Below are positions 18,220-47,239 of a DNA stretch of 64,000 nucleotides, one piece after another (the stretch's first letter is position 1; each line of letters opens with the position of its first letter). Made by a program: the position numbers and the translations under genes. The notes below the pieces were generated by a model. It saw only the letters and a list, made by a program, of their open reading frames with translations, did no database searches and had not been told where the DNA came from. This DNA comes from Microgenomates group bacterium (lineage in GTDB: Bacteria; Patescibacteriota; Microgenomatia; UBA12405): the NCBI GenBank assembly GCA_049303675.1, contig JBAQNJ010000001.1, positions 199,494 through 263,493 on the forward strand, given 5' to 3'.

Positions 18220-19458
18220 ATGAAAAATTTTGTTATCTTTGGTGTCAGTGGTGACCTTTCCCAGAGATACATCTTACCCGCCCTTGGTAATTTAGCTGCT
18301 TCCGGCCATCACTTTAATTATTTTGGGTTTTCTCGCCAATCAGTTGATCAATCAACTATAAATTTCTCTCAAAATATAAAATATTTTACCGGTAACTATG
18401 ACTATCAGGGTCTTTCCAAAATGTCTAAATTTCTTACCCCTGATACTATCTTTTATTTTTCTATCCCTACCAGTTATGAGCTCATTGTCTCCCTTGTTTC
18501 CGGTCTATTACAACATCATTTGATTGGTGATCACACTCGCCTCGTTATTGAAAAACCCTTTGGTACTGATTATCAATCAGCCCAAAAACTCATGGATTAT
18601 CTGACCGCCAGTGTCGGTCAGGATAAGGTTTTTTTGGTTGATCACTACCTTAGCAAAGAATTGGTTCGTAACCTTATCTCTCTTCGTTTTGCCAATCCTA
18701 TTATTCACCAGTTGTGGAACAAAGAGCATATCGCCAGAATCAACATTATTGCTGTTGAATCAGCCGGGATTGGTACCCGCAGCCGATATTATGACCAAAT
18801 TGGCGCTATTCGCGATATGATTCAAAATCATTGTCTCCAGCTCCTCGCCATTTCCACCATGTCCGAGCCAGCCAGCTTTGACCAGTCGTCATTCTCTCTC
18901 GAAAAACTAAAAATTATCAACCATCTCGTCCTCACCCAGAAAATCAAAAAAAACGTCAGTATTGGCCAATATCACGGCTATCTTCAGGAATCAGGAGTGG
19001 ATCCCCAGTCCCTTACTGAGACTCTTGCTCAAATAAGTTTTGAAATTAATCTCCCTCACTGGCGGGGAGTTCCTATCACTATCACCACCGGTAAAAAAAT
19101 GGATCAAAAATTGACTGAAATAAATATTATCTTCAAAAAAGCTAGGTCTCTCAAACTCTGGAAAGAAGCTCATAGTCTCAACCCCAACGTTCTCTCAATT
19201 AATCTCTCCCCCCATGCCGACATTTTTCTGTCCCTAAACTCCAGTTTTCAGCCCCACAATCAGCTTCCTCAGCCACAGAACTTACATCTCGGCAGCCTAT
19301 CAGTTAGCCCCAGCTCCGCCTACGAAAGTGTCATTTTGGATATTCTCCACGGCGTCAACATCAATTCCCCTTCCTTTGCCGAGATAATTGCCCAGTGGAA
19401 AATAGTCGATAAAATAATCCACCTCCCTCATCTCCGAGACAAACTTTTTTATTATTAA
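18220..19458 (+). CDS. zwf: glucose-6-phosphate 1-dehydrogenase (short form)
   Basis: FVIFGVSGDLSQRYILPAL at the N-terminus. VDHYLSKE matches the RIDHYLGKE motif. WNKEHIARINIIAVESAGIGTRSRYYDQIGAIRDMIQNHCLQLLA matches the G6PD pattern. Confidence 0.8.
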   Translation: MKNFVIFGVSGDLSQRYILPALGNLAASGHHFNYFGFSRQSVDQSTINFSQNIKYFTGNYDYQGLSKMSKFLTPDTIFYFSIPTSYELIVSLVSGLLQHHLIGDHTRLVIEKPFGTDYQSAQKLMDYLTASVGQDKVFLVDHYLSKELVRNLISLRFANPIIHQLWNKEHIARINIIAVESAGIGTRSRYYDQIGAIRDMIQNHCLQLLAISTMSEPASFDQSSFSLEKLKIINHLVLTQKIKKNVSIGQYHGYLQESGVDPQSLTETLAQISFEINLPHWRGVPITITTGKKMDQKLTEINIIFKKARSLKLWKEAHSLNPNVLSINLSPHADIFLSLNSSFQPHNQLPQPQNLHLGSLSVSPSSAYESVILDILHGVNINSPSFAEIIAQWKIVDKIIHLPHLRDKLFYY

Positions 19459-19645: not shown

Positions 19646-21046
19646 TTAAACCATATTTTCCACACTCAGTGTTACTCTAGTCCCACCAACATATTCCTTA
19701 TCATATTCTATCTTCCATGCGTTTCTTTCGCAGATCTGTTTAACCAGCGACATTCCTACTCCAAACCCCAACACTCTTGACTGGTGTTTTTCACCCCGAG
19801 TAAACCGCTCGAATACTTTACTAAATATTTTTTTATCTATTCCTTCGCCTTGATCACAGACTTCAAATATATACTCTGAGTTTATTCTATTCATAGATAT
19901 TTTTATCTCTCCACTCCTTCGGTTATACTTTATGGCGTTTGAAATCAAGTTTGCCATTGCCAGTTCGAAGCCTACTTTATCACACTTAATCAACACCGTT
20001 GGTTCAATTTCATTCAGGCATTTTAGATTCATCTCTGCAATTTTTATTTCCTGTTCTTTGCAGATCAGGTCGACCACTGTTTTTGGCGAAAAATTTTCTC
20101 TCACAATTTTTACTTCATTACGGTCATATCTTGATAACAGCAATAATTCATCCACCCTACGGGATAATTGCATCAACTCATCTTTTGTTGAATTAATTTT
20201 TTTCCTCTGTATTTCGTCATTTGTATCCAGTTTCAATACCTCCAATGTCGATACTACCCTTGCCAGCGGAGTCTTCAATTCATGCGAAGCATTGGAAATA
20301 AACGACTTTTGTTTTTCCAATCCATCCGCCAGTCTGTCCAGTAGCCGATTATATGCTCTTACCAATATTCCCACTTCATCGTTTTCATTACCCACATAAT
20401 CAATTTTATCTCCCAAATTTTCAATCCCCACCTTCTCCATCGCCTCGACTACATCATCTAGAGATCGGAAAACTATTCCCACCAGTTGGTGCGACAATGG
20501 CCAGCTCAGCAGCATACTCAGTACCAGTATTGTCAATATTAGCCAGCCAGCTATTTCCCCAAAGTGCCCAAAAATTAGCATAGGTGAGGCCAGTATCAGT
20601 TCTCCCACTTGCTTCCCCTCATCCAAAATTGGCACCGACAAAATCATATATTTTTCTCCGGACTTACCTACAAAGTTAGCATACTGAGTTTCCTGACTGT
20701 TCCAGTTGTAGCTAGCCACCTCAGCTTCGTTTTGAAATATGCCATATTTAGCCACTGCCTCATTGCCCCCATCCAAAATTTGGGCAGACATATTTTCATC
20801 CCGCAAGTAAGCGCTCAAGGTTCTCCCTTCATCATCTAATCGGAATTTAATTTCACCCTCTTCAAAAAACAGTCTATTAGTTACCATCTCCTTCGCCACA
20901 CCTTCTAGCCCACTCCTCATTCCCCGACTTGAAAACCAGTAATACCCTCCGGCCAATACCGACATTGATATTACTAGGGTAATCCCAATATACATTAAGA
21001 TATAAATCCACGCTCTAGTTTTTATCGCCAGTGGCGCATATTGCAT
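19646..21046 (-). CDS. sensor histidine kinase (2 TM, HAMP, HisKA, HATPase)
   Basis: H-box SNASHELKTPL. N, G1 and G2 boxes present (NAIKYN, DQGEGI, GFGVGMS). Confidence 0.9.
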   Translation of the reverse strand: MQYAPLAIKTRAWIYILMYIGITLVISMSVLAGGYYWFSSRGMRSGLEGVAKEMVTNRLFFEEGEIKFRLDDEGRTLSAYLRDENMSAQILDGGNEAVAKYGIFQNEAEVASYNWNSQETQYANFVGKSGEKYMILSVPILDEGKQVGELILASPMLIFGHFGEIAGWLILTILVLSMLLSWPLSHQLVGIVFRSLDDVVEAMEKVGIENLGDKIDYVGNENDEVGILVRAYNRLLDRLADGLEKQKSFISNASHELKTPLARVVSTLEVLKLDTNDEIQRKKINSTKDELMQLSRRVDELLLLSRYDRNEVKIVRENFSPKTVVDLICKEQEIKIAEMNLKCLNEIEPTVLIKCDKVGFELAMANLISNAIKYNRRSGEIKISMNRINSEYIFEVCDQGEGIDKKIFSKVFERFTRGEKHQSRVLGFGVGMSLVKQICERNAWKIEYDKEYVGGTRVTLSVENMV

Positions 21047-21698
21047 ATCCTTTACCTTTTATAGTTTTTATTAACTTGTTCTTACTTCCCTTATCTATTT
21101 TATTCCTCAAATAACGAATATGGACATCGACAGTATTGGAAAATATATTAGCATTTTCATCCCAGACATGAGCCAACAGATCAATCCTTGATACCGACTC
21201 ATTAACTCTCACCGCCAAATATTCCAAAAGAGCATATTCCTTAGTAGACAGCACAATTTCCCTGCCCGCCCTTTTTACCGTTCGAATGGCGGTATTAATT
21301 TCCAAGTTATCAATTTTTATAATTGGGCTATTAGCCACTCCGCTTCTCCGTAGAGCCGATCTAATTCTGGCTAGCAATTCCTCACTATCAAATGGTTTAG
21401 TGATATAGTCATCCGCCCCTGCATCCAGACCTTCAATTTTATCCTCAATTTGGCTATTGGCCGTCAACATTATTATTTTAACTTCCTTATTTTCCTTTCT
21501 TATCTCTCGGCATAGATCCATTCCTGACCCATCAGGCAGTTTCCAGTCCAATAGAATTAAATCATAATCAGGTGAAATTAGTTTATCATTAGCTTCCATC
21601 ACATTTTTCGCCGTATCTACCGCATAGCTGAATCGTCGGAGTATCGTGGCAAAATTTTCCAGCAGTGTTGTATCATCCTCGACAAACAATATTCTCAT
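21015..21698 (-). CDS. OmpR-family response regulator
   Basis: Receiver domain (MRILFVEDD...LLDWKLPDGSG...K) plus a winged-helix C-terminus. Confidence 0.9.
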   Translation of the reverse strand: MRILFVEDDTTLLENFATILRRFSYAVDTAKNVMEANDKLISPDYDLILLDWKLPDGSGMDLCREIRKENKEVKIIMLTANSQIEDKIEGLDAGADDYITKPFDSEELLARIRSALRRSGVANSPIIKIDNLEINTAIRTVKRAGREIVLSTKEYALLEYLAVRVNESVSRIDLLAHVWDENANIFSNTVDVHIRYLRNKIDKGSKNKLIKTIKGKGYAICATGDKN

Positions 21699-21774: not shown

Positions 21775-22251
21775 TTATATTCTTGTTAACTGATTTAAAA
21801 ATGAATTTGGATGTCGGTTGTGGAAAGTAGCTGACATATCCGCCCCACATTGGAATATGTCTCCCCCCGAATGTTGGTTTCTAAAACTCGTCACATCGTA
21901 TCTCCCCCCATCAATCGTAATAATGCACCGATTGTCTACTACCGGTGCTGTTGTTGGTTGTACCGTTTGAGGTGCACTTGTTGGATTATTTGGTTGTGAA
22001 TTAGGACTTTGTGAAGGCTGGGGTTGGCTAAATATCGCCGCAAACGGATCAGGATTATTTGCCACCACTCTTGATTTAGGCTTGGGTTTTACTGTTGGTA
22101 TTACGGTGGGCACCTCAGTCGGTATTGGAAAATTGGCTACGATTGGTGCAGTTGATATGGGTACGTTTGGCTTTTTCAGCGCCATCACCACTGCTCCCAA
22201 CATTATGAAGTTAAACAGAGCAATTAAAAAGGCAATTTTTATTAGTTTCAT
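21775..22251 (-). CDS. secreted cytochrome b5-like heme-binding domain protein with a Pro-rich linker
   Basis: Signal or TM anchor, a P/T/Q-rich spacer, then CIITIDGGRYDVTSFRNQHSGGDIFQCGADMSATFHNRH. This aligns with the b5 core (VYDLTKFLEEHPGGEEVL..AGGDATE.FEDVGHS) including both His ligands. Confidence 0.65.
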   Translation of the reverse strand: MKLIKIAFLIALFNFIMLGAVVMALKKPNVPISTAPIVANFPIPTEVPTVIPTVKPKPKSRVVANNPDPFAAIFSQPQPSQSPNSQPNNPTSAPQTVQPTTAPVVDNRCIITIDGGRYDVTSFRNQHSGGDIFQCGADMSATFHNRHPNSFLNQLTRI

Positions 22252-23531
22252 TATTTAAAGGCAAAATCTTCAAAAATAATATTGTTACTGTGTACCCCAT
22301 TGGCCCTTAGTTGGGTTACCATACTTTCCATCATCGCCAGTGGTCCACAAATATAAAATCGTTTGTCAGTTATCTTTCCCAGCATTTCCAGCAGAATACT
22401 AACATTGATTCTCGGCTTATTACCCCCAAAGAATCTATAATATTTTAGGTTTAACATCTGTTCCGATAGTACGGTTATTTCATTATCATAGACCGCATCC
22501 TCTACGCTAGCAGCTCCATAAAACATATGAACAGTTCTCGACAAAGGTGTCTGTTTCTCTTTGGCCAACATACTCAAAAACGGAGTCACCCCAATTCCTC
22601 CTCCAATCATCACCACATCACCACTCTTCTCATAATTCTTATAAAACCTCCCATACGGTCCCCACACGCTAGCCATCGTCCCTGTTTTTAATTGCCTTAG
22701 TTTCAAAGTATGATCTCCTAGCGCCTTAATCGAAAATCTAATCTCCTCCGAGTCTGGTCCTGACGAAATCGTGAACGGGTGTTTTTCCGCCAATTCTGGG
22801 ATATCAAAGTTAACAAAAGCAAATTGCCCCGCCCTAAACCTCATTTTGTCTCCAACCGCCGCTAGGTATATTTCCAGAATGTCTCCCATTTTTTTGACTT
22901 CTTTTACTCGATATTTATATTTAGGACCGAGGCCTCCATACAGCACTACCTTATATACAAATGAAAACAATGCCAATCCCAAAAATACAAAAATCCAAAT
23001 CCGAAGTGGCATATATCTCGACACATCACTACTTATCATAAAAATATGTAGTGCCCCCAGTAGTAGTGTCAGTCCCAAAAAGTCATGTGTTTTCAGCCAC
23101 ATATCATAAGGTAATTTAACGACAAAAGTCAGCAACAGTGCCAAAATCATCACATATAATGCCCCCACCCCGAGGTTATAACTCACCGTCGACGATAACC
23201 AATAGTATCTTGCCGCCAATTGATAGTTTGGCAGGGCATCGACAGCCAAAAATAGGGGATGGTTAATTAGCATAATAAATGACAATCCGCCCACAATATG
23301 ATGCGTTTTCATTACTTTATCCATGCCTCCAAACATATATTCCAAAAAGAAAGCCCGACTACTCAAAATGAAGCTCCATGCCAACAGCATCGTTCCCAAA
23401 AGTGAAATCAGTTGAGATGCACTTAGCCATGGCATTTGTCGGATTACTCCGATATCGCTCTTTGACATCACATACAGTCCAGTAGTAGTCATTATGGCTA
23501 GCCATATTAGCCAGTTACCTATATATTTCAT
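22251..23531 (-). CDS. NOX/ferric-reductase (FRE) family flavocytochrome: 6-TM bis-heme domain plus FAD and NAD(P)H-binding domains
   Basis: His pairs in TM helices (HHIVGGLSFIMLINH and HDFLGLTLLLGALH). FAD motif HPFTISSGP. NADPH motif MIGGGIGVTPFLSML. Confidence 0.85.
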   Translation of the reverse strand: MKYIGNWLIWLAIMTTTGLYVMSKSDIGVIRQMPWLSASQLISLLGTMLLAWSFILSSRAFFLEYMFGGMDKVMKTHHIVGGLSFIMLINHPLFLAVDALPNYQLAARYYWLSSTVSYNLGVGALYVMILALLLTFVVKLPYDMWLKTHDFLGLTLLLGALHIFMISSDVSRYMPLRIWIFVFLGLALFSFVYKVVLYGGLGPKYKYRVKEVKKMGDILEIYLAAVGDKMRFRAGQFAFVNFDIPELAEKHPFTISSGPDSEEIRFSIKALGDHTLKLRQLKTGTMASVWGPYGRFYKNYEKSGDVVMIGGGIGVTPFLSMLAKEKQTPLSRTVHMFYGAASVEDAVYDNEITVLSEQMLNLKYYRFFGGNKPRINVSILLEMLGKITDKRFYICGPLAMMESMVTQLRANGVHSNNIIFEDFAFK

Positions 23532-23547
23532 CTATCAATTATATGGC

Positions 23548-24213
23548 TTAATCGTCAATTTCTTCAGATTCAACTTCCCTTCTCTCGCTATTTCTATTCT
23601 CCCGACTTTCATACCTGTCTCTGTTTTCACTATCTTCTCTCTCATCATCGTCATCTTCAAAATCACGAACACTTGACTCATCTTTGGCCCCAGTAGGCTT
23701 GACGGTCGTGGTCGGGATAGCTGTTGGTGTCCTTGTTGGCTCTATACTCGGAGTTACCGTCAAAAAGACAGGTGCAGTTGTTACTGTTGGGGTGATTGCC
23801 CCACCGACTAAGAATTGTTGCATTTTATCTACGTTTGTACCGTACTTAGCTGAATATTTACTGGTCATATCTCCGCCACAGTTAAACAAATCACCATTTT
23901 TCCCTTGACCATTGGGTGTAGTTACATCATATTCTTTTCCAAATAGCGTAATAATACACTTACCACTGGTTTTCTTAGGTTGTTCTACTTCAATTTCGTG
24001 CAGATCAACTGGCGCTGACTCGGGTGTCACAGTTGGTACAGCTTCAGTTAATATTTTTGGTTTCGACATCTCTAATCCACTTTTGGGTATTCTATTTTCT
24101 CCCATTGCTGCCGTTGCTTTTGATGCAGCAATACCCATTGTCCCTACCGAAATACCAGCAGTTAGTAGTAACATTAGCTTAAATCCTAGAGTTGATAATA
24201 GTGATTCGTTCAT
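23548..24213 (-). CDS. secreted b5-like domain paralog lacking both canonical His ligands, with a T/P-rich linker and a poly-acidic C-terminal tail
   Basis: CIITLFGKEYDVTTPNGQGKNGDLFNCGGDMTSKY is the same fold pattern without His. The tail is DFEDDDDEREDSENRDRYESRENRNSERREVESEEIDD. Confidence 0.6.
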   Translation of the reverse strand: MNESLLSTLGFKLMLLLTAGISVGTMGIAASKATAAMGENRIPKSGLEMSKPKILTEAVPTVTPESAPVDLHEIEVEQPKKTSGKCIITLFGKEYDVTTPNGQGKNGDLFNCGGDMTSKYSAKYGTNVDKMQQFLVGGAITPTVTTAPVFLTVTPSIEPTRTPTAIPTTTVKPTGAKDESSVRDFEDDDDEREDSENRDRYESRENRNSERREVESEEIDD

Positions 24214-24270
24214 AATTAGTTAAATTCTAATGGGTCATTGTATCTCAGCCAACATTAAGATTTGATTAAC

Positions 24271-24603
24271 TTATTTAACCAATCTGGCCACAATTGGGTA
24301 TTTTCGTCTAATTATCGCTCCACCGGCTATGTTTAAATCAGTTGTCGAGTCTTTTCCCGCCAAAAAGTTATAAACTGCGCCTTTTTCATAAAATTTTTTG
24401 CCACTAGTCACATCATAAACATTGCCCTCATAGGCCAAATATATTGGCAATTTTGGATCACTTCCATCATGTTTAGACAATTCACTCAAAGTCATTGGTT
24501 TCAAATTTTGATCCACCACCGTCGGTGCTTTTTGAAAAAAGGGCAATTGTTTAGCCAACAAATATGTTCCCATGACCAATCCCAAAGTCAACAAAACCAT
24601 CAA
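24271..24603 (-). CDS. MAPR/PGRMC-like cytochrome b5-type heme/steroid-binding domain protein with an N-terminal TM anchor
   Basis: LSELSKHDGSDPKLPIYLAYEGNVYDVTSGKKFYEKGAVYNFLAGKDSTTDL matches the MAPR pattern (KPI..AV.G.VFDVT.G.KFYGP.GPY..FAGRDASR.L). Confidence 0.6.
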   Translation of the reverse strand: MMVLLTLGLVMGTYLLAKQLPFFQKAPTVVDQNLKPMTLSELSKHDGSDPKLPIYLAYEGNVYDVTSGKKFYEKGAVYNFLAGKDSTTDLNIAGGAIIRRKYPIVARLVK

Positions 24604-24630
24604 CCCACTCTTAATATATTTAATTAATTT

Positions 24631-24658
24631 CGTAATTAGTAATTCGTAATTAGTAATT
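24631..24658. repeat. exact 14-nt tandem duplication (CGTAATTAGTAATT x2) in the cupin/MAPR intergenic space
   Basis: Seen directly. Confidence 0.5.
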
Positions 24659-25055
24659 ATTCTGTCGTTACTCCATCAAATTCAGGACTATTAGTCTCGG
24701 CCTCAGCTTTGGTTGCTCGGACCACCTTGTCTTGATGATGTGCCGGAGAATAAATAGTATACAGTTTTAGCATTTCTGTCTCCGAAGTATTGATCACATT
24801 ATGGTTTGCTCCAGCCGGTACTACAATTGCCGATCCGTTGGTCACCGTATACTCATGGTCATCAATAATTACCTTGCCAAATCCACTCTCAAATCTAAAA
24901 AACTGGTCATTCTCCCTATGGACCTCCATCCCAATTTCTTCTTTTGGTATTAGGTTCATCAATACCAGCTGACTATGTTTACTGGTGTAGAGTACTTGTC
25001 TAAAATTATTATTTTTGATTGTCGCTTCTTCGATGTTTATATTAAATCCATTCAT
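24657..25055 (-). CDS. cupin-domain protein
   Basis: Small beta-barrel pattern with the two cupin motifs (G.EVHRENDQFF...G / PAGANHNV). Confidence 0.6.
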   Translation of the reverse strand: MNGFNINIEEATIKNNNFRQVLYTSKHSQLVLMNLIPKEEIGMEVHRENDQFFRFESGFGKVIIDDHEYTVTNGSAIVVPAGANHNVINTSETEMLKLYTIYSPAHHQDKVVRATKAEAETNSPEFDGVTTE

Positions 25056-25088
25056 ATTACTAGTTATTAGTTAATTGTAACTAACTTA

Positions 25089-25493
25089 TTATAGACCACG
25101 ATTCAAAAAAGTTATGGAAACTTGTAAAATAGTAGCAAATCCAACCCACAGCAAATAAGGGATTTGAATATAAGCAATCCATGACTTAATTGGATAAATA
25201 ACTTGCATCGCCCAAATCAAGGTAGCAAGCACCAATATTATATCCACCATCGCCAAATAGTTGTTTTTCAAACCAAATTGTATCGGTGTAAATATAATAT
25301 TAAATAAAATATTTAGTAAAAAAGGCAACCAAACCACAACAGAAATTTGCTTACTTATAGCCATTTTAAACACATTTCCAAAAGAAATTGCTATCAGTAC
25401 ATAGAGGAATGTCCAGACCGGACCAAACAAAAAAGCAGGCGGAGCCCATGATGGTTTTATCAGTGTCGCATACCAGTTATATGTTGGAGTCAT
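25089..25493 (-). CDS. tspO: TspO/MBR (tryptophan-rich sensory protein, translocator protein) family membrane protein
   Basis: WYATLIKPSWAPPAFLFGPVWTFLYVLI matches the TspO signature (W...L.KP.W.PP...F..VW..LY). Confidence 0.8.
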   Translation of the reverse strand: MTPTYNWYATLIKPSWAPPAFLFGPVWTFLYVLIAISFGNVFKMAISKQISVVVWLPFLLNILFNIIFTPIQFGLKNNYLAMVDIILVLATLIWAMQVIYPIKSWIAYIQIPYLLWVGFATILQVSITFLNRGL

Positions 25494-25568
25494 AATTCAT
25501 TCTACTCTCTTTTAATCGCCTCTTAATCTCTCAAAAGATATCATACTTGCGTTAACCATTAAATTATT

Positions 25569-26195
25569 ATGAACAATTCAAAAAGTAATTTATTTCAAAA
25601 TGCCGTTTTACTCGGTAGTGCCCTCATTATTTCCAGTCTGGCTGCGTTTAGCTTAGTCAAAAATATCTCTCGGGTCAATGCTGCTGCCCCCTGTATTATC
25701 ACTGTCTTTGGCCAGCAATACGATGTCGCTCCTCTCCAAACCGGTCATTCAGGTGGCAATATCTTCGTTTGCGGTACTGACATGACTGCATCTTATCAGA
25801 GTATGCACGGTACTGACGTTTCTCGTATCGCCGCTTATCTTATCACCTCCACTCCGACACCTACGGTTACTGTTGCCCCCAGTGTCAGTCCCACCCCCAC
25901 AGTCACTACCACTCCCACCGTTACTCCTACGTCCTCCCCATCGCCCACAGTGGTTCCTTCGGTTAGCCCCACTGCCACACCTTCAGTTATCAAACACGAC
26001 GATGACGATGAAAATGAAATAGAGGATGAACATGAAAACGAAAATGAAGATCACGACAACGATCATGATGACAATGAACACCGTGAACGTCGTGGCGACA
26101 ATCGCTCCGATCGCGGTCAAGAGCACGGTCAAAATGAATTGCATCAAAGTAGCAATTCCCAAATAAAAGCAGACTCAAGTCATGAAGATGACTAA
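25569..26195 (+). CDS. secreted cytochrome b5-like domain protein with a T/P/S-rich linker and a His- and acid-rich C-terminal tail
   Basis: Signal peptide, then CIITVFGQQYDVAPLQTGHSGGNIFVCGTDMTASYQSMHGTD (both His present). The tail is HDDDDENEIEDEHENENEDHDNDHDDNEHRERRGD... Confidence 0.65.
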   Translation: MNNSKSNLFQNAVLLGSALIISSLAAFSLVKNISRVNAAAPCIITVFGQQYDVAPLQTGHSGGNIFVCGTDMTASYQSMHGTDVSRIAAYLITSTPTPTVTVAPSVSPTPTVTTTPTVTPTSSPSPTVVPSVSPTATPSVIKHDDDDENEIEDEHENENEDHDNDHDDNEHRERRGDNRSDRGQEHGQNELHQSSNSQIKADSSHEDD

Positions 26196-26213: not shown

Positions 26214-26247
26214 AAAAAGCCCCGACTCCGGTCGGGGTTTTATTTTA
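26214..26247 (+). terminator. rho-independent terminator (ccccgac-tccg-gtcgggg followed by TTTTATTTT). It could act in both directions because an A-run precedes it.
   Basis: Seen directly. Confidence 0.6.
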
Positions 26248-33943: not shown

Positions 33944-34029
33944 CCTCTATTATAACCTACCTATTCTCCGTCTCTGCTTTTTTATAGTACTTTTTACTTT
34001 ATAAACTTTTAACTTTACAAACTGCCATG

Positions 34030-34101
34030 TGTTCCTGCCGAGAGTCGAACTCGGATCAATCCCTTCGGAGGGGATCATCTTATCCATTGGACTACAGGAA
34101 C
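34030..34101 (-). tRNA. tRNA-Arg (anticodon CCG)
   Basis: Acceptor GTTCCTG/CAGGAAC has 7 bp. Anticodon stem ATCCC/GGGAT with loop CTCCGAA. T-arm CCGAG-TTCGACT-CTCGG. The D-stem is weak, with one mismatch. Confidence 0.7.
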
Positions 34102-34149
34102 CTAGCCTGTATTTTATCCTATTTTTATGATATAAACCAAACTATTCAA

Positions 34150-34425
34150 ATGAAACGGATTACCGTTGAATTTAGTCAAAAACAAGCCAATCAGCTCTAT
34201 TCTTATGGGGTTGCCTTAGGTGATGACAGGTCCATCAATATTACCCAACATGTCGTCAGAGAGCTTTATCGTCATTGTACTGATGCCGAAAAGAAGGCCG
34301 AGAAAGATAGGCGGTCTCCCACTTTTTGGCAACTGCATGACCAAATTCTTAGAAAAATTGATGACGCTAATCTAGCAACTTTCGAGTCAAGTCCCCGTCG
34401 AAAGTCTAAACGTTTCTCTTTTTAG
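34150..34425 (+). CDS. hypothetical protein (start trimmed to MKRITVEF, since the longer ORF overlaps the tRNA)
   Basis: ORF only. Confidence 0.35.
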   Translation: MKRITVEFSQKQANQLYSYGVALGDDRSINITQHVVRELYRHCTDAEKKAEKDRRSPTFWQLHDQILRKIDDANLATFESSPRRKSKRFSF

Positions 34426-39923: not shown

Positions 39924-40093
39924 AATAGAGTATTTTGTGCATGTGATATTTCTCTGCCATGTTCAGATCTATCCAAAATACTCAATATTTCTTTTTTTAA
40001 TGCAAGTGGAATCATGGTTATTTTTCAAATATATTTCAATATTCGCAGCAACTATTTTTTGGATAGCAAATTAGACAGTGGTACATGAATTAA

Positions 40094-40345
40094 TTATACC
40101 TTGTCACTCCATTTAATATGCCTTTTTATAAATTCTCTACCAGAACCTGTTTTCATATATTTTTCAAATCGAAAGGCAACTTTTTCATCAGTGAAAGCAA
40201 AATATGCAATTAGTTTCCAAGGTCTTAGATTTTTTGTTGCTGGAACAAATCCCTTATTGTGTCTTTGAAATCTATCTTTCAAATCATTAGTACAACCAAC
40301 ATAAGGAATTTTGTCTTTGTTTTCTAGAAAGTAAACATAAAACAC
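40094..40345 (-). CDS. GIY-YIG nuclease superfamily protein (UPF0213/YhbQ-like)
   Basis: YVYFLENKDKIPYVGCTNDLKDRFQRHN contains GIY...YVG plus the conserved R and N. Confidence 0.75.
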   Translation of the reverse strand: MFYVYFLENKDKIPYVGCTNDLKDRFQRHNKGFVPATKNLRPWKLIAYFAFTDEKVAFRFEKYMKTGSGREFIKRHIKWSDKV

Positions 40346-40468
40346 AATTAAATAATACTCTCTTTCTCGTTAAGCGGATTTATCCGCCGGAGCAGGGTGT
40401 AGTACAGTCATAGAAAAGCTTACTCTAATCGAAAACAACCCGCCTACGTTATCACCCAGCGGGCGTAG

Positions 40469-40510
40469 GCGGAGCATTAGGATCTGGAACCTTCCTGTCC
40501 CTATAACCCA
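40469..40510 (+). repeat. direct repeat copy 1 (about 42 nt) ending exactly at the ATG of ORF 40510
   Basis: ggcggagcattaggatctggaaccttcctgtccctataaccc. Confidence 0.6.
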
Positions 40511-40860
40511 TGTCTAAACTTAATGGCAATATTTTGAAAATTCTTATATACTATTCTTGTATGGGATATAACGAAAACCATATTCAGTCAACTCTATCAC
40601 AAGCAGTTGCCGACATGAAGCAATACTATCCTCGTGTTGAAGTACTATCCAACTTTCGTCGTGCTTCCGATGGTCACCCCACCCGGGTTACTTTGACAGT
40701 CATCGGTTTTTCTGATACTGGTTATAACGAAAGAACTTTACCCCTTCGTCATCCACGCCACCCTGGTGAACAGTCACTTATAGCCCAAAAACGTATGCTT
40801 GATCATGAAATCGGTCTTCGATGTCTTACTATCCGTCCGGATGTTGAAATCAATAGTTAG
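40510..40860 (+). CDS. hypothetical protein (116 aa) bracketed by about 42-nt direct repeats
   Basis: ORF only. Its composition is somewhat GC-richer than the surroundings. Confidence 0.45.
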   Translation: MSKLNGNILKILIYYSCMGYNENHIQSTLSQAVADMKQYYPRVEVLSNFRRASDGHPTRVTLTVIGFSDTGYNERTLPLRHPRHPGEQSLIAQKRMLDHEIGLRCLTIRPDVEINS

Positions 40861-40862
40861 TT

Positions 40863-40906
40863 GGCGGAGCATTGGGGTCTGGAATCTTTCTGTCCCTATA
40901 ACACCC
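40863..40906 (+). repeat. direct repeat copy 2, starting 2 nt after the ORF stop
   Basis: ggcggagcattggggtctggaatctttctgtccctataacaccc, about 85 percent identical to copy 1. Confidence 0.6.
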
Positions 40907-41046
40907 TCTTACCCACTGTCTCATTCTATCAAAGATTTAAAGCTAAATGAGACAAATGAGACGGTTTAAAATGGAACTTAAAACTTGTGATGTAGTTTGA
41001 CATATAAATATCTTTGCCCCAAATGTTTTTAGTTTCAAGCCAACAG

Positions 41047-41079
41047 GGCATGACTTAAATAAAATAAGCAGGTTGAAGT
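41047..41079 (-). terminator. rho-independent terminator (aagcag-loop-ctgctt plus a T-run on the minus strand)
   Basis: Seen directly. Confidence 0.5.
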
Positions 41080-41109
41080 AAATCTGCTTATAAATATAAC
41101 AAGATAACT

Positions 41110-41337
41110 CTAATCTAGATTATCCAAATATACTCTGTAGTTATTGGCCGTTTTGCCTTTTTTGGCGGCTTCAACTATAGCCTGATCATTTTTATCGGAC
41201 TCATCCTGGATAGCTTGTGGTATATTTATTCCGTCCAGAGAAAGGATATCGCCTAGTTCGGCACCCACAGGGGCGTGGACAAAACGATTAAGGGCTCGAC
41301 GAAGACCTGAATCAATTGAGATTTTTAGTTTATCCAT
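41110..41337 (-). CDS. hypothetical protein (75 aa)
   Basis: ORF only. Confidence 0.4.
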   Translation of the reverse strand: MDKLKISIDSGLRRALNRFVHAPVGAELGDILSLDGINIPQAIQDESDKNDQAIVEAAKKGKTANNYRVYLDNLD

Positions 41338-41485
41338 AATTGTCAGATTTTACCACGTATTTTCAACTTTATTTATTGTTGCTCAAATTTATACCTATTT
41401 CTGGGTTTTATGTTCGCTGGCAAATTAATCTACTTTCAATGTGGATTATAACTCACAACTTTAGGTATATAATTCCCCTATAAAT

Positions 41486-42064
41486 ATGACCGAAATTGAA
41501 ATTCGAGGCAAATTATCAAAAGACAAATTTGACGAGCTATTTAAGCTATTAACCAGTGGTGGAGAATTGGCTGATCACTACCATCGTCTATCAATTGATT
41601 TATCTTCGGGTTTCGATCCCACTACAAAAACATGGAAAAACAGCAGTGGTACGGATATCAGATTAAAGAAAAGTGATGATAAAGAAAAACTATCGGTAAA
41701 AATGGGTAGTTTTCACGAAAAAGAAAGAAAAGAGGTTGAGGTCAAACTCCAAACAGGACAATTCCTCAGTGCTCTAGACTTCTTGGAGGCTCTAGGGTAT
41801 CAAAATGGCATGATTTATTATTGGGAAAGTTGGGAATTCAATTATCGGGGTGTCGAGATTAAATTATCAAAATATACCGATGATTATTTTACTTTTGAAA
41901 TCGAAGGTAAAGAGAATACTGACGTTGATGCGATTGCTGAGGATTTTGAACTAACTCAATACTCTCAAGAGCAATACCGACAAGTGATTGACTGGGAGAA
42001 CCAAAATATTCATCAACTATACACTCGAGAACTAACCGAAAATTTGTTAAAAAGTGAATTTTAA
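41486..42064 (+). CDS. CYTH-domain (triphosphate tunnel metalloenzyme, CyaB-like) protein
   Basis: N-terminal EIEIRGKL (ExExK motif), and alternating acidic residues along the predicted beta-strands. Confidence 0.55.
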   Translation: MTEIEIRGKLSKDKFDELFKLLTSGGELADHYHRLSIDLSSGFDPTTKTWKNSSGTDIRLKKSDDKEKLSVKMGSFHEKERKEVEVKLQTGQFLSALDFLEALGYQNGMIYYWESWEFNYRGVEIKLSKYTDDYFTFEIEGKENTDVDAIAEDFELTQYSQEQYRQVIDWENQNIHQLYTRELTENLLKSEF

Positions 42065-42611
42065 TATGCACATAATCTATCTTTCAGGAGGAAGTGTCCG
42101 CAATAAGATTTGGATCGAAGAAATTAAATCGAAATTCGATAAATTTTCTGATGGCCAAATTCTGTATTATTCTCATTGGGAAACGGGTGAGAAAAATCTA
42201 AATTTTGAAATTGAAACTAAGAAACTATCAGAACTAGTTGCGGGTAAAGATGAATATTTTGTCTTTGCCAAATCCATCGGTTCAATTTTGGCACTAAAAA
42301 GCATTTATGAAAAAGTTATTAGCCCCAAAAAGATGGTGATTTGCGGTCATCCCTATAATTTAGCCAAAGAGCTAGGATTTCCTATTGATGACTATTTAAA
42401 ATCGTTGACTATCTCTACAATTTTCTTCCAAAACGAATTCGACCCATTATTTAGTTATGCTGATCTTGAAAAAGTTTTAGGAGAGAATATTGCGTCTGAT
42501 TATCACTTAATAAAAAATCCAGATAACAACACTCATGATTATGAGGACTTTGAAAAATTGACAGAAGTCGCAAACAAGTCGTTTACCGCTATGCAACCTC
42601 CAATTGTCTAA
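42054..42611 (+). CDS. alpha/beta-hydrolase-like protein (overlaps the CYTH gene by 11 nt)
   Basis: Nucleophile-elbow-like FAKSIGS. The fold call is tentative. Confidence 0.4.
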   Translation: MNFNMHIIYLSGGSVRNKIWIEEIKSKFDKFSDGQILYYSHWETGEKNLNFEIETKKLSELVAGKDEYFVFAKSIGSILALKSIYEKVISPKKMVICGHPYNLAKELGFPIDDYLKSLTISTIFFQNEFDPLFSYADLEKVLGENIASDYHLIKNPDNNTHDYEDFEKLTEVANKSFTAMQPPIV

Positions 42612-43443
42612 GGTAATTTATTGAATTTTGAACTAAATCAATTTTATTTTCTTTTCCTTCAGGCTCAATTGAAAAAAAGCCATCATATCCATTCTTTAAT
42701 AAGATTCTAAACAATGATTTATAAGGTATATCACCTTTACCCAACTCAACCACCGCTTTGTTTTTCTCATCAAAATCCTTTAGGTGAATATATTCAATTG
42801 AATCAACAGTTTTTTCAAAATCATTAATTCCAATAGGCTGTCCTATTACATAGGTGTTGCCAATGTCTAACAATAATTTATAGTTGTCTCCATACAGATT
42901 TTTGAAGTTTAGTATTTGTGAAGTGGAATAGAAATATGTTGATAAACCGTTTTCAAGTAACAAATCAATGTGATTATCTCTTGCCTGAGTAAGAGCTAAT
43001 TCGTATAGGTCACTTTCTTCATTCCAAAAAGAATCATTTTCTTGACCTTCGCTTTTTATCAAAGAAAATATCCTTACATATTTAGTTTCGAAAATCTTGG
43101 CTACTACAAAAGCCTTCATTATATAATCTATCTTCGTGTGTTTCGGTATATATTTATTAAAACCAAACATGAGATCGTTATGGGTCAGATCCCTAGTATC
43201 TTGATTGTCGCTCTCCGGACACCACTTGAACAGTGGTGATGCAATTGCCGAAACTTGAATATTATTACGATCAAGTTTTTCTTTTATGTTATTAATTTCT
43301 TCGATAGTACAGTCGAGAATATTTTTATTACCAATGTATCGTAATTCAACATAATCAATATGGTTACTTACCAAAAACTTTAAACTTTCGTCGAAGTTGT
43401 CACTAATTTCATCATTGATAACTGATAATTTGGGAATGTTCAC
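42589..43443 (-). CDS. sugar phosphate isomerase/epimerase (xylose-isomerase-like TIM barrel)
   Basis: Size and pattern (VELRY...E...H.KD...E) fit. Confidence 0.6.
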   Translation of the reverse strand: MNIPKLSVINDEISDNFDESLKFLVSNHIDYVELRYIGNKNILDCTIEEINNIKEKLDRNNIQVSAIASPLFKWCPESDNQDTRDLTHNDLMFGFNKYIPKHTKIDYIMKAFVVAKIFETKYVRIFSLIKSEGQENDSFWNEESDLYELALTQARDNHIDLLLENGLSTYFYSTSQILNFKNLYGDNYKLLLDIGNTYVIGQPIGINDFEKTVDSIEYIHLKDFDEKNKAVVELGKGDIPYKSLFRILLKNGYDGFFSIEPEGKENKIDLVQNSINYLRQLEVA

Positions 43444-43458
43444 TGTTTTTATTAAAAA

Positions 43459-44175
43459 CTATAAATGAATACCATTGTTGACATCGATACATACTCCATT
43501 AATGTATCTTGGGCTTGATGTAGCAAGCCAAAATATAGTCTCAGCAATTTCTTCAACAGTCGCGTATCTTTTCTCAATAGATGATGCCTTAAAAGCCTCT
43601 TTTCTCTCTTTGGGTGCAGTCTGTAACATGTCAGTATCCACTGGCCCGGGTGCCACACAATTTATAACAATACCCTCAGGACCTAATATTTTTGAAAAAC
43701 TCTTTGTAACATTAACAATACCAGCTTTGGCGATACCATACCAAATATCAGAGTGGCCAACATGAGCTGCCATTGAAGAAAGATTAACGATCCTTCCATT
43801 CTTTTTCTTAATCATACTTTTTGAAAATTCTTTGATCAGTTCAATTGGCGCAAAGAGATCGAGTGTTAACATTTCATCCTGTTTCTTAGCTGGGTAATTG
43901 TCATACGGTAGTGCGTTTAGAATACCTGCATTGTTTACTAGTATGTCGATGTTTCCAACGTCTATTATGAGTTTTGGAATATTGTCTAAATCTAGAAGGT
44001 TGTATTCTATACAGCGCACTTTTGAAACTATTGACTTTGGAAATTTTGAAAAATCTTTATCGACAATGATGATTTCGTACGAATTTTTATCTTCAATAAA
44101 CTTTTTTACTGTGGCTAAGCCGATTCCTTTACCACCACCTGTAATTAAAACTCGGGGAATATAATTATCACTCAT
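43459..44175 (-). CDS. SDR-family oxidoreductase
   Basis: TGGGKGIG Rossmann motif. NAG and YxxxK-like motifs present (YGIAKAG). Confidence 0.85.
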   Translation of the reverse strand: MSDNYIPRVLITGGGKGIGLATVKKFIEDKNSYEIIIVDKDFSKFPKSIVSKVRCIEYNLLDLDNIPKLIIDVGNIDILVNNAGILNALPYDNYPAKKQDEMLTLDLFAPIELIKEFSKSMIKKKNGRIVNLSSMAAHVGHSDIWYGIAKAGIVNVTKSFSKILGPEGIVINCVAPGPVDTDMLQTAPKERKEAFKASSIEKRYATVEEIAETIFWLATSSPRYINGVCIDVNNGIHL

Positions 44176-44225
44176 CTGTTTTCAAAGAATATTTAACTTG
44201 AGACATTATAACCCAACTTAAGCTA

Positions 44226-46097: not shown

Positions 46098-46100
46098 ATT

Positions 46101-47129: not shown

Positions 47130-47135
47130 AATACG

Positions 47136-47208: not shown

Positions 47209-47212
47209 CTAA

Positions 47213-47239
47213 TAAAAAACCTCCCTTTTTGTCTGGGAG
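47213..47239 (-). terminator. terminator-like hairpin (cctccc...gggagg) with a T-run on the minus strand, between the GT-like gene and tRNA-Phe
   Basis: Seen directly. Confidence 0.45.

What the first reader, a model, noticed from the sequence alone, without database searches (positions are those of the whole stretch)
21775..26195. Three paralogous ~45-aa secreted b5-like domains, one lacking both heme-ligating histidines, with low-complexity linkers and poly-Asp/Glu/His tails
Two copies, at 21775..22251 and 25569..26195, carry the conserved block C-I-I-T-x-x-G-x-x-Y-D-V-[TA]...H-S-G-G-x-I-F-x-C-G-x-D-M-[ST]...F/Y-x-x-x-H. This aligns position by position with the cytochrome b5 heme pocket (VYDLT..F...HPGG...AGGDAT..F...HS). 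The third copy (23548..24213) keeps the scaffold but replaces both His residues (NGQGKNGD, KYSAKYG), so it may be a heme-free or differently ligated variant. The tails DFEDDDDEREDSEN... and HDDDDENEIEDEHENENEDHDNDHDD... are strongly metal-chelating in character. The Thr/Pro-rich spacers (PTPTVTVAPSVSPTPTVTTTPTVTPTSSPSPTVVPS) look like cell-wall-spanning stalks.
Basis: partly seen in the sequence, partly recalled or inferred. Interest (0 to 1): 0.6.

Follow-up and report, generated by a model that had tools for sequence, protein, structure and literature searches.

The report
Mini cytochrome-b5 proteins beside a NOX-like reductase
Three small membrane-anchored proteins in an uncultured Microgenomates (CPR) bacterium carry a cut-down cytochrome b5 domain and sit around a NOX-like reductase gene, in a CPR-specific gene cluster already noted in a 2021 preprint, which probably carries electrons from NAD(P)H to the outside of the cell.

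Summary
Three ORFs (21775-22251 -, 23548-24213 -, 25569-26195 +) share a ~57-aa domain (pairwise BLASTP E about 1e-13). Its predicted fold matches only cytochrome b5. A profile of the family hits the flavocytochrome b2 heme domain at E 2.8e-10, with both conserved His on the b2 residues numbered 43 and 66, which I recall as its heme ligands.

Two copies flank a NOX/Fre-like transmembrane NAD(P)H reductase. The eight-gene cluster also has TspO, a cupin, a MAPR-like b5 and a two-component system. This is the CPR-specific cytb5MY/pFre/cytb5-like operon described in bioRxiv 10.1101/2021.11.17.468889, whose function is unknown.

- **Family:** at least 932 representative proteins. 283 of 299 unique domains keep both His and both Cys.
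- **Linkage:** 29 of 40 evaluable loci have the reductase gene within 300 nt.
- **His-less copy:** not decay. It defines a conserved clade (five lineages, 52-63% identical) with Tyr at the second ligand position and a conserved acidic tail motif.

Most likely these are extracytoplasmic heme electron carriers fed by the reductase, possibly for iron reduction. Heme binding and the acceptor are untested.

The parts
25569..26195 (+). P3: a stand-alone mini-b5 protein. It has a signal peptide or anchor (residues 1-38, possible cleavage after VNA), a b5 domain (residues ~40-96, nt 25686-25856) with both His and both Cys, a Thr/Pro/Ser stalk (94-142) and an Asp/Glu/His-rich tail ending in DD (143-208).
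   Evidence: ORF. Family HMM score 101.9 bits. AF2 model of the domain pLDDT 89.9. Foldseek matches are cytochrome b5 only. Composition. Annotated as hypothetical protein MFZ2152751.1.
25089..25493 (-). TspO/MBR-family membrane protein, first gene of the minus-strand cluster and divergent from P3. The family is known to bind porphyrins.
   Evidence: Pfam PF03073 E 9.7e-30. TspO also lies upstream of the cassette in L113, L117 and L118 and next to a P3-like gene in L036.
24657..25055 (-). Small cupin-domain protein.
   Evidence: Pfam Cupin_2 E 1.6e-13. It holds the same position in L113-L116.
24271..24603 (-). Membrane-anchored MAPR-like cytochrome b5 (the cytb5MY type). It has the FYEKGAVY tyrosine motif instead of the His pair.
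   Evidence: Pfam Cyt-b5 E 7.6e-11. PDB Arabidopsis MAPR 1t0g E 1.3e-12 and PGRMC1 4x8y E 2e-5. This gene type is described in 10.1101/2021.11.17.468889.
23548..24213 (-). P2: the His-less mini-b5 protein. It has a TM helix (3-35), a spacer, a b5 domain (residues ~83-139, nt 23797-23967) with Gly and Tyr in place of the two His and the Cys pair kept, a Thr/Pro linker, and an acidic tail with the motif FEDDDDEREDSENRDRYE, ending in DD.
   Evidence: HMM score 79.9 bits. AF2 domain pLDDT 80-91 with b5-only fold matches. Four His-less orthologues, P0179-P0182. Region-by-region conservation.
22251..23531 (-). NOX/Fre-like transmembrane NAD(P)H reductase (the preprint's pFre). It has a six-TM ferric-reductase domain with four heme-ligand His (H77/H91, H149/H162), an HPFT motif, a GGGIGVTPF motif and a CGP motif (read as the FAD- and NAD(P)H-binding motifs, from memory).
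   Evidence: Pfam FAD_binding_8 and NAD_binding_1. Full-length match to the chains of PDB entries 8qt6/8qq7 (which I take, from memory, to be Streptococcus pneumoniae NOX) E 4e-30, with all four His aligned. The orthologue in L031 is 52% identical and carries PF01794.
21775..22251 (-). P1: a tail-less mini-b5 protein. It has a TM anchor, a 79-aa Pro/Thr/Ser/Gln spacer and a C-terminal b5 domain (residues ~106-158, nt 21778-21936) with both His and both Cys. Its start codon overlaps the reductase stop codon (TAATG).
   Evidence: (Pfam Cyt-b5 23.8 bits). Orthologues sit in the same position in L025, L031, L039, L113, L115 and L117.
21015..21698 (-). OmpR-type response regulator of the cassette.
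   Evidence: RR homologues lie next to the cassette in 27 of 95 loci. Pfam Response_reg and Trans_reg_C on the same gene as called in L001 (the window's own contig) and on its orthologues.
19646..21046 (-). Sensor histidine kinase with two N-terminal TM segments. It overlaps the response regulator gene by 32 nt.
   Evidence: ORF. HisKA and HATPase_c on the same gene as called in L001 (the window's own contig) and on its orthologues. Present in 26 of 95 loci.
26216..26241 (.). Strong bidirectional terminator-like hairpin, 21 nt after the P3 stop. It closes the locus on that side.
   Evidence: 11-bp stem with 6 G-C pairs and T runs on both strands.

Best explanation
**What the three genes are.** They are the cytochrome-b5-like subunits of the CPR-specific pFre/cytb5MY cassette. 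Each protein is held in the membrane by an N-terminal helix or signal peptide. Each displays a minimal b5 domain of about 57 aa outside the cell.

**The domain.** It keeps the heme-pocket core of b5: strands beta3-beta5, helices alpha2, alpha4 and alpha5, and both axial His. It lacks the N-terminal beta1/alpha1 segment and has a helix alpha3 shortened by 3 residues. An invariant Cys pair probably forms a disulfide.

**The proposed electron path.** The NOX/Fre-like protein encoded between P2 and P1 takes electrons from cytoplasmic NAD(P)H. It passes them through FAD and two stacked b hemes across the membrane. The His-bearing mini-b5 proteins accept them at the outer face and hand them to an external acceptor. 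P1 is the likely first acceptor, because it is translationally coupled to the reductase and is the only partner in the simplest cassettes.

**The acceptor.** Most likely it is Fe(III) or another metal ion, captured by the flexible acidic or His-rich tails of P2 and P3. That would make the cassette an inducible, two-component-regulated extracellular ferric reductase that supplies Fe(II).

**P2.** It belongs to a conserved clade that exchanged the bis-His site for Gly plus Tyr. It probably no longer acts as a low-spin electron carrier. It would instead serve as a Tyr-ligated heme holder or as a non-redox partner in the same complex.

**Shown versus inferred.**
- Shown: homology, fold, conservation of the ligands and gene linkage.
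- Inferred: topology, disulfide, heme binding, direction of electron flow and the acceptor.
For: **b5 identity.**
- Pfam hit on P1.
- 34 of 56 family domains hit PF00173 only.
- Family profile against PDB flavocytochrome b2 gives E 2.8e-10, with both His on H43/H66.
- AF2 model pLDDT 89.9, with only b5 structures matched.

**Ligand conservation.** 283 of 299 unique domains have both His and both Cys.

**The reductase looks competent.** It gives a full-length match to the 8qt6/8qq7 chains (taken from memory to be Streptococcus pneumoniae NOX) at E 4e-30 with all four heme His aligned, and it has the HPFT, GGGIGVTPF and CGP motifs.

**Linkage.**
- The reductase gene is adjacent in 5 of the first 6 look-ups.
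- It lies within 300 nt in 29 of 40 evaluable metagenome loci.
- It is present in 65 of 95 b5-centred loci.
- The FRD stop and P1 start overlap as TAATG.
- No comparable terminator lies inside the eight-gene minus-strand cluster: only two weak 5-bp minus-strand stems, both within coding regions.

**Same cassette elsewhere.** It recurs in other CPR lineages (L031, L113-L118) and is published as CPR-specific.

**Extracytoplasmic display.**
- 122 of 150 representatives have an N-terminal hydrophobic segment.
- P2 is modelled with a helix at residues 3-35.
- The Cys pair is invariant, and the linkers are Thr/Pro-rich.

**Iron link.** After the core genes, the commonest neighbours are cysteine desulfurase (16 loci, 11 reductase clusters at 70% identity) and NifU (7 loci). 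They are divergently adjacent to the simple b5-reductase pair.

**P2 is functional.** Five lineages, 52-63% identical to P2, all lack both His and share YSAKYG. The domain is the best-conserved region (71% mean pairwise identity, against 23-28% for the linkers).
Against: - No experiment shows heme in any member.
- The domain is much shorter than a classical b5, and the helix-alpha3 side of the pocket is reduced to a loop in the model. Stable heme binding is therefore not assured.
- CPR bacteria are generally held to lack heme synthesis (my own knowledge, not tested here), so every heme would have to be scavenged.
- P2 and P3 fail Pfam on their own, and P1 passes by only 0.1 bit.
- I could not read model coordinates, so the His-His and Cys-Cys distances were not measured.
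- 11 of 40 evaluable loci have no reductase within 3 kb, as is the case for P3 itself.
- The iron link rests on neighbourhood only. Related genomes share synteny, which inflates those counts.
- No iron transporter was seen beside the cassette in the window.
Confidence: 0.55

Rival explanations
1. Heme or porphyrin acquisition rather than electron export. The surface-displayed b5 domains, often in tandem arrays, would capture host heme in the way NEAT-domain proteins do. The Tyr-type proteins (the MAPR-like b5 and the His-less P2) would hold ferric heme. The reductase would reduce it to trigger release or uptake. TspO would handle porphyrin.
For: - The locus is packed with heme- or porphyrin-binding families: TspO, a MAPR-like b5 with Tyr ligands, three mini-b5 proteins and a two-heme reductase.
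- TspO and the cupin recur next to the cassette in L113-L118 and next to P3-like genes in L036, L041 and L079.
- Tandem arrays of up to 4 domains on Thr/Pro stalks resemble multi-NEAT surface proteins.
- All three unique domains that lack both His have Tyr at the second ligand position.
- The preprint raises reduction-triggered heme release by tyrosinate-ligated MAPR proteins.
Against: - Bis-His six-coordinate b5 sites are classical electron carriers, not exchange sites, and 95% of domains keep both His.
- The simplest and most widespread cassette is only b5 plus reductase, without the MAPR-like gene or TspO.
- No heme transporter was identified nearby.
- The TspO association is confined to a few lineages (1 of 53 evaluable genes within 3 kb).
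Confidence: 0.2
2. Oxygen or another soluble oxidant is the acceptor. The cassette would be a bacterial NADPH oxidase used for NAD(P)+ regeneration, or for making superoxide at the interface with a host cell. The b5 proteins would act as modulators or extra exit points.
For: - The closest solved relative of the reductase is, by my recollection of entries 8qt6/8qq7, an active bacterial NADPH oxidase (SpNOX; E 4e-30).
- Glucose-6-phosphate dehydrogenase, a source of NADPH, lies beside the cassette in the window and in L115.
- CPR bacteria lack a respiratory chain (my own knowledge), so an external electron sink would be useful.
Against: - As I recall, SpNOX works alone, without a b5 partner. The tight and conserved coupling to b5 genes argues for a protein acceptor.
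- The metagenome samples were not characterised for oxygen.
- The G6PD adjacency may be plain synteny between relatives.
Confidence: 0.12
3. The domain is not a heme protein. The invariant Cys-His-Cys-His set would bind a structural or catalytic metal ion (Zn, Fe or Cu) on a b5-like scaffold.
For: Four residues that are invariant in most members are C, H, C and H. The domain is small, and the tails are rich in metal-binding residues.
Against: - The two His fall exactly on the residues numbered 43 and 66 in flavocytochrome b2, which I recall as its heme ligands.
- The His-less clade keeps both Cys under strong conservation. The Cys pair therefore works without the His pair, as a disulfide would.
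- Actinobacterial relatives with a full-length b5, HPGG and clear Pfam hits carry the same Cys pair.
Confidence: 0.05
4. P2 is a decaying paralogue with no function of its own.
For: It lacks both residues that define the site. A related contig, L039, has a positional equivalent that lost only the first His, which could look like stepwise decay.
Against: - Four further lineages at 52-57% identity keep the same His-less pattern, the same YSAKYG and the same tail motif.
- The domain is the most conserved part of the protein.
- The ORF is intact and keeps its operon position.
Confidence: 0.03

Closest known systems
CPR cytb5MY / pFre / cytb5-like (CBLA, CBLB) operon with a two-component system (bioRxiv 10.1101/2021.11.17.468889)
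   Same: The gene set and order match: MAPR-like b5, b5-like protein, ferric-reductase-like protein, b5-like protein, response regulator, histidine kinase. All are membrane proteins in a CPR (Microgenomates) genome.
   Different: The parts of the preprint I read (term-search passages, section 3.5 in full and the first part of the discussion) say only that the b5-like proteins are atypical and barely detectably homologous to b5. Added here:
- the fold;
- the statistics for the His and Cys pairs;
- the tandem arrays;
- the acidic tails with a conserved motif;
- the His-less Tyr clade;
- the simple b5-reductase pair next to NifS/NifU.

I could not see the figures, so I cannot say which of P1 and P2 is CBLA and which is CBLB.
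Classical cytochrome b5 and the heme domain of flavocytochrome b2 (Pfam PF00173)
   Same: Same fold (TM-score 0.72-0.74). The same two axial His positions, HxGG and F/YxxxH. The GxD[AM]T strand is also shared.
   Different: - About 57 aa instead of about 75-80.
- No N-terminal beta1/alpha1 segment.
- A 3-residue deletion after HxGG.
- An invariant Cys pair.
- N-terminal rather than C-terminal membrane anchor, displayed outside the cell.
- One clade lacks both His.
Bacterial NADPH oxidase SpNOX and the eukaryotic NOX/FRE family (partner protein)
   Same: Six-TM ferric-reductase domain with two His pairs, plus FAD and NAD(P)H domains. There is a full-length alignment at E 4e-30.
   Different: As I recall, SpNOX acts alone on oxygen. 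Here the gene is translationally coupled to, and flanked by, b5 genes, which points to a protein acceptor.
CYBDOM proteins (cytochrome b561 fused to a DOMON heme domain) acting as plant ferric reductases (PMC10784552, abstract listed)
   Same: The logic is the same: a two-heme transmembrane electron conduit feeds an extra b-type heme domain on the outer face, which reduces Fe(III). This is an analogy of mechanism only.
   Different: The folds are unrelated (b561 and DOMON against FRD and b5). The donor is ascorbate rather than NAD(P)H. One system is fused and the other uses separate polypeptides. No homology is claimed.
Secreted multi-domain b5 proteins of Actinobacteria ('cytochrome b5 domain-containing protein')
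   Same: The same Cys pair and His pair, and tandem repeats of up to 8 domains. These proteins were retrieved by the same profile (P0019, P0031, P0162-P0172).
   Different: They keep the full b5 N-terminus (YTxxxVxxH..CW) and HPGG, and they lack the 3-residue deletions. In the sequences I read (P0019, P0031 and the tails of P0112 and P0127) there is no acidic tail. Their gene neighbourhoods were not examined here.

Membership tests
[quoted passage not shown] | Significant match to the family profile. | tested here: inconclusive
   For the window copies alone, P1 scores 23.8 bits against a cut-off of 23.7, and P2 and P3 give no hit. For the family, 34 of 56 domains hit PF00173 (best E 2.2e-17) and nothing else. 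The family profile matches b5-type heme domains in the PDB down to E 2.8e-10.
[quoted passage not shown] | The b5 fold. | tested here: met
   The AF2 model of the P3 domain has pLDDT 89.9. The top 50 Foldseek PDB matches are all b5 domains, with TM-score 0.72-0.74. The P2 domain has pLDDT 80-91 and gives the same matches. These are predictions, not solved structures.
[quoted passage not shown] | Two axial His at the HPGG position and the second ligand position. | tested here: met
   Met for P1 and P3: the family His align with the residues numbered H43 and H66 in flavocytochrome b2 entry 1fcb. Their role as heme ligands is from memory. Not met for P2, which has Gly and Tyr.
[quoted passage not shown] | Complete domain of about 75 aa, including the N-terminal strand and helix. 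| tested here: not met
   The domain begins at the Cys that corresponds to the residue before the conserved Trp of b5. The N-terminal YTxxxVxxH segment, present in actinobacterial relatives, is absent, and two 3-residue deletions follow.
[quoted passage not shown] | Binds heme b. | not testable with these tools
   This needs spectroscopy of the purified protein.
CPR cytb5MY/pFre/cytb5-like operon (10.1101/2021.11.17.468889) | A MAPR-like b5 gene with tyrosine heme ligands. | tested here: met
   Gene at 24271-24603: Pfam Cyt-b5 E 7.6e-11 and Arabidopsis MAPR 1t0g E 1.3e-12, with FYEKGAVY aligned to FYGSGGDY.
CPR cytb5MY/pFre/cytb5-like operon (10.1101/2021.11.17.468889) | A ferric-reductase-like transmembrane gene in the same cluster. 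| tested here: met
   Gene at 22251-23531. PF01794 is recorded on the orthologues.
CPR cytb5MY/pFre/cytb5-like operon (10.1101/2021.11.17.468889) | Two further atypical b5-like genes and a two-component system, in a CPR genome. | tested here: met
   P2 and P1 flank the reductase, and RR and HK follow. The source is a Microgenomates group MAG, GCA_049287145.1.
NOX/FRE ferric-reductase-domain family (partner protein) | Two His pairs in TM3 and TM5, plus FAD- and NAD(P)H-binding motifs. | tested here: met
   H77/H91 and H149/H162 align with the four His of the 8qt6 chain (SpNOX, by my recollection). HPFT, GGGIGVTPF and CGP are present.

The most novel reading that the evidence does not exclude
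The cassette would be a reductive heme and iron acquisition machine for a heme-auxotrophic episymbiont.

- Surface mini-b5 domains on Thr/Pro stalks, with acidic or His-rich tails, would capture host-derived heme or Fe(III).
- The His-less, Tyr-bearing P2 clade and the MAPR-like protein would hold ferric heme through tyrosinate.
- The NOX-like reductase would deliver NAD(P)H electrons across the membrane to release it as ferrous heme or Fe(II) for uptake.

This would be a new use of the b5 fold, with a switch from bis-His electron carrier to Tyr-ligated heme shuttle inside one operon.
Probability: 0.15. Interest if true: 0.75.

Novelty: new variant of a known kind. Interest (0 to 1): 0.5.

Why it matters
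CPR bacteria are usually described as fermentative symbionts without respiratory chains or heme synthesis (my own knowledge). Yet this cassette encodes a two-heme transmembrane reductase plus up to four extracytoplasmic b5-type proteins under two-component control.

If the chain works as proposed, these organisms can send NAD(P)H electrons outside the cell, for iron supply or for redox balance, and they must import heme to do so. Both points bear on how they depend on their hosts.

The mini-b5 is also among the smallest b5 versions I know of. Paired His-bearing and Tyr-bearing clades in one operon offer a natural experiment on how heme ligation sets function.

The operon itself has already been noted in a preprint, so the gain here is detail and testable hypotheses rather than a new system.

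Tried and rejected
- **Word-indexed homologue search with the 57-aa P3 domain:** it found nothing. This is a limit of the index, not evidence of absence, because the exhaustive profile search found 932 representatives.
- **Genome scan with the reductase:** it returned only 24-30% identical homologues in Proteobacteria and Gemmatimonadota. None has a mini-b5 gene nearby. This fits the CPR restriction, but it used the only genome scan.
- **Metagenome scan with the broad alignment A3:** A tighter alignment, A5, worked.
- **NCBIfam:** no model for any of the b5 proteins.
- **P2 as a one-off degenerate copy:** I held this view after seeing that the L031 orthologue keeps both His. I dropped it when four His-less orthologues appeared.
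- **The 'HD' variants:** these looked like loss of the second His. They are an alignment artefact of a longer b5 subtype whose second His lies a few residues further on, in a PHS/DHS motif.
- **A C2H2 metal site:** judged unlikely (see the rival explanations).
- **Taxon names for the multi-domain relatives:** none were on record.
- **Literature searches beyond the preprint:** they found no further work on this system.

Full report
**1. The observation**

- P1: 21775-22251, minus strand, 158 aa.
- P2: 23548-24213, minus strand, 221 aa.
- P3: 25569-26195, plus strand, 208 aa.

They share one block. Pairwise BLASTP gives E 8e-13 for P1/P3, 3e-14 for P2/P3 and 8e-13 for P1/P2. Fifteen columns are invariant among the three copies, including two Cys, YDV, CGxDM and a Phe.

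P1 and P3 have HSGG and a second His four residues after a conserved aromatic residue. P2 has Gly and Tyr at those two columns.

The spacers and tails are as described:
- P3 stalk: 73% Thr+Pro+Ser.
- P3 tail: 41% Asp+Glu and 12% His, net charge -21.
- P2 tail: 49% Asp+Glu, net charge -13.

Two corrections apply. The conserved unit is about 57 aa, because it includes a C-terminal helix. P1 has no acidic tail, and its long Pro/Thr/Ser/Gln spacer lies before the domain.

**2. It is a b5 domain**

- P1 alone reaches the Pfam Cyt-b5 gathering score by 0.1 bit. P2 and P3 do not hit on their own.
- A profile of the three copies, run against 1.84 billion representative proteins, finds 932 at E<=1e-3 and 611 at E<=1e-10.
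- Of 56 diverse domains from those hits, 34 match PF00173 and no other Pfam family.
- A profile of the 56 matches 48 PDB sequences at E<=1e-3. Forty-seven are b5-type heme domains or proteins that contain one. The exception is a partial match to an sfGFP-labelled chain (8hco_G).
- The best PDB match is the heme domain of flavocytochrome b2, at E 2.8e-10. The family's two His fall on residues 43 and 66 of entry 1fcb. From my memory of the literature, these are that protein's heme ligands.
- AlphaFold2 on the P3 domain with 26 sequences gives pLDDT 89.9. Foldseek against the PDB returns only cytochrome b5 domains in the top 50, with query TM-score 0.72-0.74 and rmsd 2.2-2.3 A over 57 columns.

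The fold is b5, and the His are conserved.

Compared with actinobacterial relatives that keep a full b5, the CPR form differs in two ways. It lacks the N-terminal YTxxxVxxH segment, and it has two 3-residue deletions, one after HxGG and one after the second His. I therefore call it a mini-b5.

**3. Family anatomy**

- In 299 unique domain instances from the representatives and the fetched loci, 283 have both His and both Cys.
- Proteins carry one to eight domains, with up to four in the CPR type (P0001 and L070).
- 122 of 150 representatives have an N-terminal hydrophobic segment. 94 of 150 end in Asp, and 67 have at least half Asp/Glu in their last ten residues.
- The Cys pair persists even where the His pair is lost. 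This suggests an independent role, most simply a disulfide in an extracytoplasmic domain. That is an inference, because I could not read the model coordinates.

**4.

The minus strand carries eight closely spaced genes:

| Gene | Coordinates |
|---|---|
| TspO | 25089-25493 |
| Cupin | 24657-25055 |
| MAPR-like b5 | 24271-24603 |
| P2 | 23548-24213 |
| NOX/Fre-like reductase (426 aa) | 22251-23531 |
| P1 | 21775-22251 |
| Response regulator | 21015-21698 |
| Histidine kinase | 19646-21046 |

Details of the arrangement:
- The reductase stop and the P1 start overlap as TAATG.
- The gap between P2 and the reductase is 16 nt.
- Inside the cluster the scan lists only two weak 5-bp minus-strand stems, both within coding regions. 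A strong bidirectional hairpin sits just after P3, at 26216-26241.
- The reductase aligns over its full length with the chains of PDB entries 8qt6/8qq7 (E 4e-30), which I take from memory to be Streptococcus pneumoniae NOX. All four heme-ligand His align, and the HPFT, GGGIGVTPF and CGP motifs are present.
- The MAPR-like protein matches Arabidopsis MAPR at E 1.3e-12 and keeps the tyrosine motif.
- The contig belongs to a Microgenomates group MAG, GCA_049287145.1. All three b5 proteins are annotated as hypothetical.

**5. The linkage is conserved, and it is already published**

- Five of the first six homologues I looked up sit beside a ferric-reductase/FAD/NAD gene.
- L031 repeats the whole order: MAPR-like b5, P2-like, reductase, P1-like, RR, HK.
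- In 80 metagenome loci found with a domain pattern, 29 of 40 evaluable loci have the reductase within 300 nt of a mini-b5 gene.
- A neighbour census of 95 loci gives reductase 65, MAPR-like 30, RR 27 and HK 26.
- Distant reductase homologues in Proteobacteria and Gemmatimonadota have no mini-b5 nearby.

This is the operon described in bioRxiv 10.1101/2021.11.17.468889. That preprint reports cytb5MY, a putative ferric reductase (pFre), two atypical b5-like proteins (CBLA and CBLB) and a two-component system. It reports the colocalization only in CPR bacteria and leaves the function unknown. I found no later work on it.

**6. The His-less copy**

I first took P2 for a local degenerate copy, because the positional orthologue in L031 keeps both His and the one in L039 has lost only the first.

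A search with full-length P2 changed that. Four further proteins (P0179-P0182), 52-57% identical to P2, all lack both His. They all share YSAKYG, with Tyr at the second ligand position. They all carry the tail motif FE[DE]DDDEREDxE[HN]xDRY.

The three whose neighbourhoods I looked up (P0179, P0180 and P0182) occupy the same slot in the same cassette, with a His-bearing P1-like gene downstream.

Among the five sequences, mean pairwise identity by region is as follows:

| Region | Mean pairwise identity |
|---|---|
| b5 domain | 71% |
| Tail motif | 66% |
| TM region | 55% |
| Linkers and far tail | 23-28% |

The His-less domain is therefore under purifying selection. The AF2 model keeps the b5 scaffold (domain pLDDT 80-91, b5-only matches). 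However, the alignment behind that model includes His-bearing relatives.

In the whole data set, the three unique domains that lack both His all have Tyr at the second position. His to Tyr is a single transition, so this is suggestive and no more.

**7. Tails**

The tails are not just low-complexity sequence. RY occurs 35 times in the tails, against 7.5 expected. Twenty-one of 173 tails carry an xRY[ILVE] core, and most of these share DDREDxEHEDRY[IV]. The terminal Asp run is widespread. The tail-less proteins are the P1 type and the partners in the simple cassette.

**8. Mechanism**

The anatomy supports an electron path: cytoplasmic NAD(P)H, then FAD, then two hemes across the membrane, then b5 heme(s) outside. 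P1 is the likely direct acceptor, because it is translationally coupled to the reductase and is the only partner in the simple cassettes.

For the final acceptor I favour Fe(III) or another metal:
- After the core genes, the commonest neighbours are cysteine desulfurase (16 loci, 11 reductase clusters at 70% identity) and NifU (7 loci). They lie divergently next to the simple b5-reductase pair.
- The acidic or His-rich tails on flexible stalks would suit cation capture.

This step is inferred from neighbourhood and composition only. Heme capture and oxygen reduction remain open rivals. Glucose-6-phosphate dehydrogenase lies beside the cassette in the window and in L115. It could supply NADPH, but the adjacency may be plain synteny.

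**9. Verdict**

The feature belongs to a gene cluster already noted in a preprint, so it is not a new system.

New here:
- evidence from fold and profile for b5 identity;
- family-wide conservation of the His and Cys pairs;
- the domain arrays and conserved tail motifs;
- the two cassette types;
- a conserved His-less, Tyr-bearing clade.

Heme binding, topology, the disulfide and the acceptor all remain untested.

Noticed in passing
window 24271-24603 (-): A fourth b5 gene of a different type, which the finding does not list. It is a membrane-anchored MAPR-like (cytb5MY) protein with the FYxxGxxY tyrosine motif. Its best PDB match is Arabidopsis MAPR (E 1.3e-12).
   Followed up: yes
window 25089-25493 (-) and 24657-25055 (-); L113, L115-L118, L036, L041: TspO and a small cupin recur immediately upstream of the cassette in the His-less clade and next to some P3-like genes. 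TspO belongs to a porphyrin-binding membrane protein family. No role in the cassette is established.
   Followed up: partly
window 23548-23682 (P2 tail); L031, L063, L068, L071, P0179-P0182: A conserved linear motif lies inside the acidic tail of P2-type proteins: DDREDxEHEDRY[IV], which in the window reads FEDDDDEREDSENRDRYE. RY is about fivefold over-represented in the tails (35 observed against 7.5 expected). 94 of 150 family representatives end in Asp.
   Followed up: partly
L027-L029, L032, L082-L098 (16 loci): A simpler cassette, with one tail-less mini-b5 and the reductase and no MAPR-like gene or two-component system, lies divergently next to cysteine desulfurase, with NifU detected in 7 of the 16 loci and a ferredoxin in the two annotated ones (L027, L032). 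This hints at a link to iron supply for Fe-S assembly.
   Followed up: partly
L038, L047, L049, L051, L052, L064, L065 (gene downstream of the reductase): In some lineages the P1 slot holds a longer b5 instead of the mini form. It has a full N-terminus (LFxExxxHN..DCW), HPGGD and a second His in a PHS/DHS motif.
   Followed up: partly
window 18220-19458 (+); L115 6616-7857: Glucose-6-phosphate dehydrogenase lies next to the histidine kinase, in the window and in one related locus. It is a possible NADPH source for the reductase, or the adjacency may be plain synteny.
   Followed up: no
L039 1859-3124 (-): In this close relative (reductase match E 1e-137) the reductase reading frame is split by a stop codon into two ORFs. 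The P2 equivalent there has lost only the first His (RTPGSG) and keeps the second.
   Followed up: no
window 40001-54000: GC skew is near zero (-0.02 to -0.08) across the stretch and G+C is lower (0.33-0.36) over most of it (40-52 kb). The rest of the window has skew of -0.2 to -0.3 and G+C of about 0.40. This may be an island or a change in gene orientation or composition.
   Followed up: no
window 47135-47209 (-) and 34029-34101 (-): tRNA-Phe lies inside the long TTG-start ORF 46101-47264 (-), so that ORF's true start must be downstream. tRNA-Arg overlaps the start of ORF 34027-34425 (+), which is therefore doubtful.
   Followed up: no
P0019, P0031, P0039 (hits): The same Cys-pair b5 domain occurs in long tandem arrays elsewhere. 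P0019 and P0031 have 8 and 6 copies and resemble the Actinobacteria-labelled hits. P0039 is a 1252-aa protein with 8 copies that looks eukaryotic. One P0019 repeat has also lost both His, with Met and Tyr in their place.
   Followed up: no
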